Assembly: GCA_951406725.2 (NCBI GenBank)
Contig: OX597824.1
Coordinates: 5,952,001 to 6,016,000, forward strand
Length of the DNA stretch: 64,000 bases
DNA from: Octopus vulgaris
Lineage: Eukaryota
Direction of reading: 5' to 3'
Under the pieces are notes generated by a model. That model ran no database searches, was not told where the DNA came from, and was given only the letters and a program-made list of their open reading frames with translations. The translations under genes and the position numbers were made by a program. Position 1 is the first letter of the stretch. Every line of letters starts with the position of its first letter. Positions 8,373-8,576 of this stretch are shown one piece after another.

Positions 8373-8576
8373 AATTAATCCAAACAAGAAAACACAAAAA
8401 AAACACAACAACGCGAGGACGTGGAACAAATAAAGTATTATTGGACGCTCAGGAAAGAAGGGAAGAAGGAGGGTTTAACGTTTCGAGCGGAGCTCTTCGT
8501 CGGAAACATAAAAGGAAAGATCCCGAGAAGGGAAGCCAGAGGAAAAAATCGCCAGCGGTACTCACGAGGTCACAGA
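8373..8576 (-). mobile_element. Short Penelope-type pLTR-like unit carrying a minimal hammerhead motif (family H1)
   Basis: Homologous to 57857-58051 (ACAAA..GTATTA..CGCTCAGG...ACGTTTCGAGC..GCTCTTCG.CGGAAA); flanked by (TA)n and (CA)n. Confidence 0.65.
8473..8507 (-). ncRNA. Minimal type I hammerhead ribozyme motif
   Basis: Minus strand: GUUU-CCGACGA-A-GAGC(UCC)GCUC-GAAA-CG-UU-AAAC; stem I GUUU/AAAC, stem II GAGC/GCUC, palindromic ACGU in place of stem III, U4C core variant. Confidence 0.6.

What the first reader, a model, noticed from the sequence alone, without database searches (positions are those of the whole stretch)
8373..8576. Minimal hammerhead family H1: covarying stems between two copies 49 kb apart
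Seen: the minus-strand motifs at 8473-8507 and 57951-57988 keep CCGxCGA-A-GAGC/GCUC-GAAA-CG-UH. Stem I changes compensatorily (GUUU/AAAC vs CUUU/AAAG) and loop II varies (UCC vs GUAG), while the flanks are far more diverged. Established: Penelope-like elements carry minimal type I hammerheads with a palindromic stub instead of helix III, proposed to cleave as dimers. Inference: a family under selection on structure that uses an atypical CCGA/CCGU core.
Basis: partly seen in the sequence, partly recalled or inferred. Interest (0 to 1): 0.7.

Follow-up and report, generated by a model that had tools for sequence, protein, structure and literature searches.

The report
Variant-core hammerheads in Penelope retroelement ends
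The two motifs are end-remnants of two sister families of Penelope-type jumping genes, each carrying a known kind of tiny hammerhead RNA in which a different, normally fixed core letter is changed in thousands of copies while the rest of the shape is kept, so they are likely slowed-down ribozymes, though cutting is untested.

Summary
Both motifs are real. They are not one family: they lie in 5'-truncated terminal repeats (pLTRs) of two sister Penelope-like retrotransposon families (proteins 66% identical; RT, CX4CxxC linker, GIY-YIG). Full-length family A elements carry the motif at both ends. A relaxed exact pattern has 32,464 genome matches. The shared CCG is coincidence. Family A fixed U4C in its dominant sub-lineage (8,333 CCGA vs 3,506 CUGA). 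Family B fixed A6U (15,954 CUGU vs 184 CUGA), and the window copy's CCGU is a 1% sporadic variant (157). Covariation is one base pair of stem I, changed once on the A/B branch; stem II is invariant. Better evidence for selection is that core and stem columns changed far less along master lineages than held-out flank blocks, also within B after A6U (4 vs 11-35 changes), while N7 changed five times. Best reading: attenuated, dimer- or protein-assisted minimal hammerheads; a non-catalytic role is the main rival. No copy in the random sample (0 of 50) starts at the cut site. This scan noted similar variant cores before, on this and other genomes. New variant of a known kind.

The parts
8376..8574 (-). 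Family A element: 5'-truncated 3' terminal repeat (pLTR) of a Penelope-like retrotransposon
   Evidence: BLAST relatives cover query 3-201 at 93-97%; profile hit 8570-8380; same repeat flanks the RT-GIY-YIG ORF at both ends in full-length loci
8473..8507 (-). Minimal type I hammerhead motif A: stem I GUUU (8507-8504)/AAAC (8476-8473); core C3-C4-G5-A6-C7-G8-A9 (8503-8497); extra A; stem II GAGC/GCUC with UCC loop; GAA-ACGU; predicted cut 3' of U17 (8477)
   Evidence: sequence; positions and fold; U4C shared by 8,333 exact genome matches
57865..58048 (-). Family B element: 5'-truncated 3' pLTR of the sister Penelope-like family
   Evidence: BLAST relatives 90-97%; profile hit 58048-57865; lies 3' of an RT/GIY-YIG ORF in L121-L124 and L292
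57951..57988 (-). Minimal type I hammerhead motif B: stem I UCUUU/AAAGA; core C3-C4-G5-U6-C7-G8-A9 (57983-57977), where U6 is the family trait and C4 a sporadic change; stem II GAGC/GCUC with GUAG loop; predicted cut 3' of A17 (57956)
   Evidence: sequence; counts CUGU 15,954, CUGA 184, CCGU 157
8257..8373 (.). (TA)n microsatellite abutting the 3' end of element A; inferred insertion target
   Evidence: 27 of 31 sampled copies that reach the 3' end have (TA)3 within 24 nt, background 8.7%
57742..57856 (.). (TA)n/(GA)n/(TATC)n microsatellite at the 3' end of element B

Best explanation
The two motifs are dead-on-arrival 3' terminal-repeat remnants of two sister Penelope-like retrotransposon families, and in the parent elements each motif likely works as an attenuated minimal hammerhead ribozyme that would cut only weakly, as a dimer through the ACGU palindrome and probably with help from the element's own protein. 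Shown: identity as pLTRs, the two separate fixed core changes (U4C in the dominant A sub-lineage, A6U in nearly all B), their derivation from a canonical CUGANGA core, and continued constraint on the other core and stem positions. Inferred: that the constraint is for slow cleavage of read-through or tandem transcripts, and that both changes lower the rate. The window copies themselves are single, truncated and most likely inert.
For: pLTR position: 7 of 14 family A ORF loci have the motif at both ends, 4.4-6.5 kb apart, repeats 94-98% identical, C4 in 12 of the 14 end motifs. L113 holds an 816-aa open stretch with YIDD, CX4CxxC and GIY-YIG. Family B: the repeat follows RT/EN coding sequence in L121-L124; L292 has 586 aligned aa without a break before a CUGUUGA motif. 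Constraint, 156 copies on a tree built from flanks only: 6 of 29 core+stem columns have a lineage-level change vs 89 of 128 flank columns; B alone 4 of 29 vs 66 of 134; random sample alone (33 copies) 6 of 29 vs 72 of 109. Held-out control: 8 changes vs 32-63 in 7 of 7 flank blocks; B 4 vs 11-35 in 8 of 8; A 4 vs 10-23 in 9 of 9 (blocks overlap). Change concentrates where the hammerhead model allows it: N7 changed 5 times within B and H17 moves among A, U and C; G17 is 421 of 32,464 exact matches, C17 2,518. Literature: minimal PLE hammerheads cleave weakly and only as multimers (PMC4209133); the Anolis PLE hammerhead cleaves only with the element's protein (PMC11167929); a natural U4C viroid hammerhead is slow in vitro but sufficient in vivo, and natural A6C has low but detectable activity (PMC3088659).
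Against: No cleavage was measured. 0 of 50 profile hits in the random sample begin at the predicted cut, and 31 run about 100 nt past it to the element's 3' end, so inserted RNA was uncut. In a type III hammerhead all CUGA mutants other than the C3-G8 swap had low activity, with no rescue (PMC9901934). Catalytic mutants of the Anolis PLE hammerhead did not impair insertion in vitro (PMC11167929). A small G17 subfamily amplified: 23 of the first 100 listed G17 matches share CUGAUGA...UCC...GUG. Folding predicts competing monomer folds: A6U raises P(G5-C15.2) from 0.08 to 0.64, sequestering the palindrome; motif A pairs stem I at only about 0.14; neither motif folds better than shuffles (z -1.1, -0.7). 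Flanks are pyrimidine-rich and misalignment inflates their change counts; most of the 156 copies were BLAST-picked young ones.
Confidence: 0.52

Rival explanations
1. The motif has become a non-catalytic cis element: the element's protein (or a host factor) recognises the hammerhead-shaped or rod-like fold or the dimer interface, and cutting is dispensable, so U4C and A6U are tolerated or even favoured because they keep the template whole.
For: The variant-core lineages are the most amplified (24,287 of 28,134 exact matches over the five core patterns). No sampled copy starts at the cut (0 of 50). A small G17 subfamily exists. Insertion in vitro does not need cleavage (PMC11167929). A6U is predicted to stabilise a closed rod.
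Against: The positions that stay fixed and those that vary (N7, H17, loop II) follow the catalytic rules closely, also after A6U; G17 is only 1.3%. A binding site need not reproduce that pattern. U4C has no comparable folding effect (P 0.00 vs 0.01).
Confidence: 0.33
2. The conserved block is constrained at the DNA level (promoter or transcription-factor site in the pLTR, or a target/integration signal), and the hammerhead shape is only inherited.
For: Stem II shows conservation without covariation, which a DNA motif would also give; pLTRs are described as holding promoters (PMC6765202, passages).
Against: One stem I pair kept its pairing through a double change, via C-G, G.U and G-C states; the loop changed length; unrelated families in the same sample have the same core with wholly different stems.
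Confidence: 0.1
3. The ribozyme is dead and decaying neutrally; variant cores were carried by chance by successful master copies.
For: Core mutations of this kind are strongly deleterious in assays (PMC9901934); Naiad PLEs thrive without a canonical hammerhead (PMC8557442, passages).
Against: Within B the flanks diverged down to 62-79% nearest-neighbour identity in 7 of 21 sampled copies, yet 25 of 29 constrained columns show no lineage-level change, and the motif is below every held-out flank block.
Confidence: 0.05

Closest known systems
Minimal type I hammerheads (min-HHR) of metazoan Penelope-like elements (Cervera and de la Pena 2014, PMC4209133)
   Same: Position in pLTRs; U-rich 5' flank; short helix I (4-5 bp); extra base between A9 and 10.1; G10.1-C11.1; palindromic 15.2/16.2 with no loop 3; NUH cut site; thousands of solo copies from truncated elements.
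   Different: All representatives listed in supplementary Fig. S3 (56 by its legend; read) have CUGANGA or the U3-A8 variant; none has C4 or U6. Their descriptor fixed the core boxes, so such variants would have been missed. No cephalopod is in that list.
Neptune/Nematis-type EN+ Penelope-like elements (Craig et al. 2021, PMC8557442)
   Same: RT followed by CX2-5CxxC linker and C-terminal GIY-YIG with two internal cysteines; pLTRs; tandem and inverted partial copies; (TA)n targets.
   Different: Neptune versus Nematis was not resolved by a tree here; family A has a long (CA)-rich 3' UTR of variable length.
Natural hammerhead core variants U4C (viroid) and A6C (phage Bcep176) (Perreault et al. 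2011, PMC3088659)
   Same: Single changes at core positions 4 and 6 in natural motifs.
   Different: Those are full hammerheads with tertiary contacts and rare cases; here the changes are fixed in helix-III-less motifs of the dominant lineages, and A6U is not mentioned in the passages read.
Poseidon element of Anolis carolinensis (PMC11167929)
   Same: pLTR hammerhead, AT-rich targets, insertion of uncut RNA.
   Different: Canonical core shown to cleave with protein help; its ORF starts inside stem II, whereas here the ORF begins hundreds of bases downstream.

Membership tests
EN+ Penelope-like element (Neptune/Nematis type) | Single ORF with RT followed by C-terminal GIY-YIG endonuclease | tested here: met
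   L113 816 aa: RVT_1 E 0.0016, GIY-YIG E 0.008, both below Pfam cut-offs; 452 homologues at E<=0.001, listed ones with PF00078/PF26215, some with PF01541; A vs B 66% over 447 aa
EN+ Penelope-like element (Neptune/Nematis type) | Direct terminal repeats (pLTRs) flanking the ORF | tested here: met
   Family A: 7 of 14 ORF loci with the motif at both ends. Family B: 3' repeat only; none of the ORF-bearing B pieces examined (L120-L124, L292) reached a 5' repeat
EN+ Penelope-like element (Neptune/Nematis type) | CX2-5CxxC linker and CCHH motif | tested here: met
   CSRSRCNTC; YCIKCNRC..YIGQT with downstream histidines, read from the translation; definition from PMC8557442
Neptune clade specifically | Placement in an RT phylogeny | not tested
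   No named reference set was at hand
PLE minimal type I hammerhead | Topology: helix I closing, helix II hairpin with G10.1-C11.1, extra base after A9, palindromic stub instead of helix III, NUH | tested here: met
   (92% of cells paired)
PLE minimal type I hammerhead | Canonical 5' core CUGANGA | tested here: not met
   Window A CCGACGA, window B CCGUCGA; family majorities CCGA and CUGU. Met only by the basal A sub-lineage (3,506 exact matches, some of which may be CpG decay of CCG)
PLE minimal type I hammerhead | Statistically significant covariation | tested here: inconclusive
   One pair, one event; R-scape and a covariance model were not run
PLE minimal type I hammerhead | Self-cleavage as dimer | not testable with these tools
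   Needs a bench assay
Rfam hammerhead families | Covariance-model match | tested here: not met
   No hammerhead family at E<=10 in either region
Non-LTR retrozyme | Tandem non-coding repeats, each unit with a type I hammerhead | tested here: not met
   Window copies are solo, 49 kb apart and of different families; tandem pLTRs seen only locally (L111, three copies about 330 nt apart)

The most novel reading that the evidence does not exclude
The most successful Penelope lineages in this genome run on hammerheads that break the CUGA rule: an A6U core has been kept under hammerhead-type selection through several subfamily radiations, either because the element's protein rescues catalysis or because the ribozyme was tuned down into a protein-recognised switch. 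The genome then holds a natural allelic series (CUGA, CCGA, CUGU; H17 = U, A, C, G) in one scaffold for testing what PLE hammerheads are for.
Probability: 0.35. Interest if true: 0.65.

Novelty: new variant of a known kind. Interest (0 to 1): 0.4.

Why it matters
The role of hammerheads in Penelope-like elements is an open question: they are nearly universal yet barely active in vitro and dispensable in the one in vitro insertion assay. Here two lineages each changed a 'fixed' core base, amplified to tens of thousands of copies, and kept the rest of the motif. That gives natural matched pairs for a direct assay, and shows that CUGANGA-based descriptors undercount PLE hammerheads: about 87% of the exact matches counted here (24,444 of 28,134) have a non-canonical core. 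The window copies themselves are ordinary retroelement debris.

Tried and rejected
Rfam: no hammerhead among the 150 best of 312 whole-window hits or at E<=10 on the two regions. The repeat finder was swamped by microsatellites. Thermodynamic z-scores were uninformative. Idea that A at the 5' end and B at the 3' end belong to one element: rejected, full-length A elements end in A repeats and B has its own ORF. Idea that both core changes stabilise one inhibitory helix: holds for A6U only. Idea that U4C is fixed in further families: single CCGA copies seen in three other motif families, not tested genome-wide. The first parsimony run included 42 pattern-picked copies that created false reversals at positions 4 and 6; they were dropped. 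RNA: no RNA holder listed on record; laid runs were contigs only and show no ends, so nothing on expression or cleavage. PDB sequence search: no match. Luense et al. 2017 on PLE hammerheads cleaving as dimers (cited in PMC6765202) is not held and was not read; it or its supplement may list such variants. Literature searches for A6U or the variant core strings gave nothing relevant; octopus + Penelope + hammerhead gave no report of these families; PMC13282606 has 0 occurrences of ribozyme or hammerhead.

Full report
Observation. Both minus-strand motifs are present at the stated coordinates. In hammerhead numbering, copy A has C3 at 8503 and H17 = U at 8477; copy B has C3 at 57983 and H17 = A at 57956. 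The motif is 29 of 35 identical between the copies and the flanks 74 of 124. The window is G000:C11:5952001-6016000 of a 2.8-Gb, microsatellite-rich animal genome. 'Octopus-like' is recalled and echoed by earlier scan notes, not tested here.

Two families, not one. Copy A retrieves about 200-nt relatives at 93-97% (1,783 candidates, 40 scored) and copy B a different set at 90-97% (631 candidates, 40 scored). In 120 evenly spaced 10-kb samples (1.2 Mb), profiles found 19 A-like and 31 B-like hits, fragments included, which extrapolates to roughly 10^5 copies. A relaxed exact pattern has 32,464 matches and 0 control matches. 27 of the 31 sampled copies that reach the 3' end abut (TA)n, against 8.7% background.

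Parent elements. Walking out from longer copies gave full-length family A elements: repeat, ORF, (CA)-rich 3' UTR, repeat. 7 of 14 ORF loci have the motif at both ends, 4.4-6.5 kb apart. L113 holds an 816-aa open stretch with RT (YIDD), a CX4CxxC linker and GIY-YIG. Family B repeats follow a sister ORF, 66% identical over 447 aa; all B pieces examined were 5'-truncated. These features define Neptune/Nematis-type Penelope-like elements (PMC8557442, passages). The window copies are thus truncated 3' pLTRs.

The cores. Exact genome counts: A scaffold CCGANGA 8,333, CUGANGA 3,506; B scaffold CUGUNGA 15,954, CUGANGA 184, CCGUNGA 157. The window's copy B is one of the 157, so the CCG it shares with copy A is coincidence. 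On the tree, A runs from basal CUGAAGA through CUGACGA to CCGACGA (one U4C change above 67-68 sampled copies), and A6U maps once, to the A/B branch; a canonical ancestor is inferred from the basal A copies and the published consensus. Part of the CUGA class may be CpG decay of CCG. In four laid runs with four organism labels, C4 is the majority state in A (U4 19-35% of depth) and no alternative to U6 reaches 8% in B, so both variants are shared across those labels.

Covariation. On the 2 window copies plus 33 random-sample copies, 92% of cells pair, but 14 of 15 two-sided changes fall on pair 2.4:1.4, and the number of pairs with such a change (2) is reached by 297 of 500 shuffles. It is one double change on the A/B branch followed by a G.U to G-C step. 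Stem II is invariant.

Selection. A better test is change along master lineages. Of 248 profile hits, 198 distinct copies spanned the motif; 42 picked by exact core patterns were dropped, leaving 156. With the tree built from flanks only, 6 of 29 core+stem columns show a change in a clade of 3 or more, against 89 of 128 flank columns; B alone 4 of 29 vs 66 of 134; random sample alone (33 copies, clades of 2 or more) 6 of 29 vs 72 of 109. To remove circularity, equal-sized flank blocks were held out of the tree: 8 vs 32-63 changes overall, 4 vs 11-35 in B, 4 vs 10-23 in A. N7 changed five times within B and H17 moved among A, U and C; G17 is 421 of 32,464. Caveats: low-complexity flanks, overlapping blocks, and a sample enriched for young copies.

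Mechanism. PMC4209133 (abstract through methods; supplement parts 1-2 of 3; supplementary file 1 not searchable) shows that minimal PLE hammerheads cleave weakly and only as multimers. PMC11167929 (passages) shows protein-assisted cleavage that is not needed for insertion in vitro. PMC3088659 (section 8 and passages) reports natural U4C and A6C variants with reduced activity. PMC9901934 (passages) finds CUGA mutants low in activity and not rescued. PMC6155905, PMC6765202 and PMC13282606 were seen as passages, and the bioRxiv preprint 10.64898/2026.07.22.740005 as its first part only. I infer attenuated, dimer- or protein-assisted cleavage (0.52). Against it: 0 of 50 sampled hits start at the cut, a small G17 subfamily amplified, and A6U is predicted to favour a closed monomer that hides the palindrome. 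A non-catalytic RNA element is the main rival (0.33).

Novelty. The kind of element is known since 2014. U4C is known in a viroid. I found no paper on A6U or on these families, but could not read Luense et al. 2017. Earlier scan notes report variant-core PLE hammerheads on this genome and on two others, one with the same CUGUCGA core; I did not check those loci. Verdict: new variant of a known kind, interest 0.4.

Noticed in passing
window 42257-42369 (+): U6atac snRNA match (Rfam 80.6 bits, E 8e-18) whose first bases are replaced by a (TA)n run; likely a 5'-truncated retrocopy or pseudogene inserted in a microsatellite.
   Followed up: partly
L062 (G000:C3:147595500-147605499), L014, L010, L043: Another hammerhead family with a 4-bp palindromic helix III (ACUC-A-GAGU), a 3-bp stem II, and both CCGACGA and CUGAUGA cores; occurs as an inverted pair next to a family A element.
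   Followed up: partly
L158, L184, L233 (random sample): A third minimal hammerhead family with canonical core and 6-bp stem II (GGCUGG/UCAGCC), 4 hits in 1.2 Mb.
   Followed up: no
L042, L156, L215: Hammerhead family with an 8-nt palindromic helix III (ACAGCUGU) and a bulged base before GAAA.
   Followed up: no
L120, L061, L063: Penelope elements of different families joined in inverted orientation at their 5' ends (for example a B piece head-to-head with an A element in L120), suggesting insertion next to each other or template switching.
   Followed up: no
L109, L115: Full-length A elements with CUGACGA in the 5' repeat and CCGACGA in the 3' repeat; could be CpG decay or mixed templates.
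   Followed up: no
window 47918-48298 (+) and 18771-19190 (+): Open stretches that read like mariner/Tc1 transposase fragments (resemblance recalled, not searched).
   Followed up: no
window 9592-9826, 35046-35405, 56299-56533: Copies of another dispersed repeat of about 235 nt, in both orientations.
   Followed up: no
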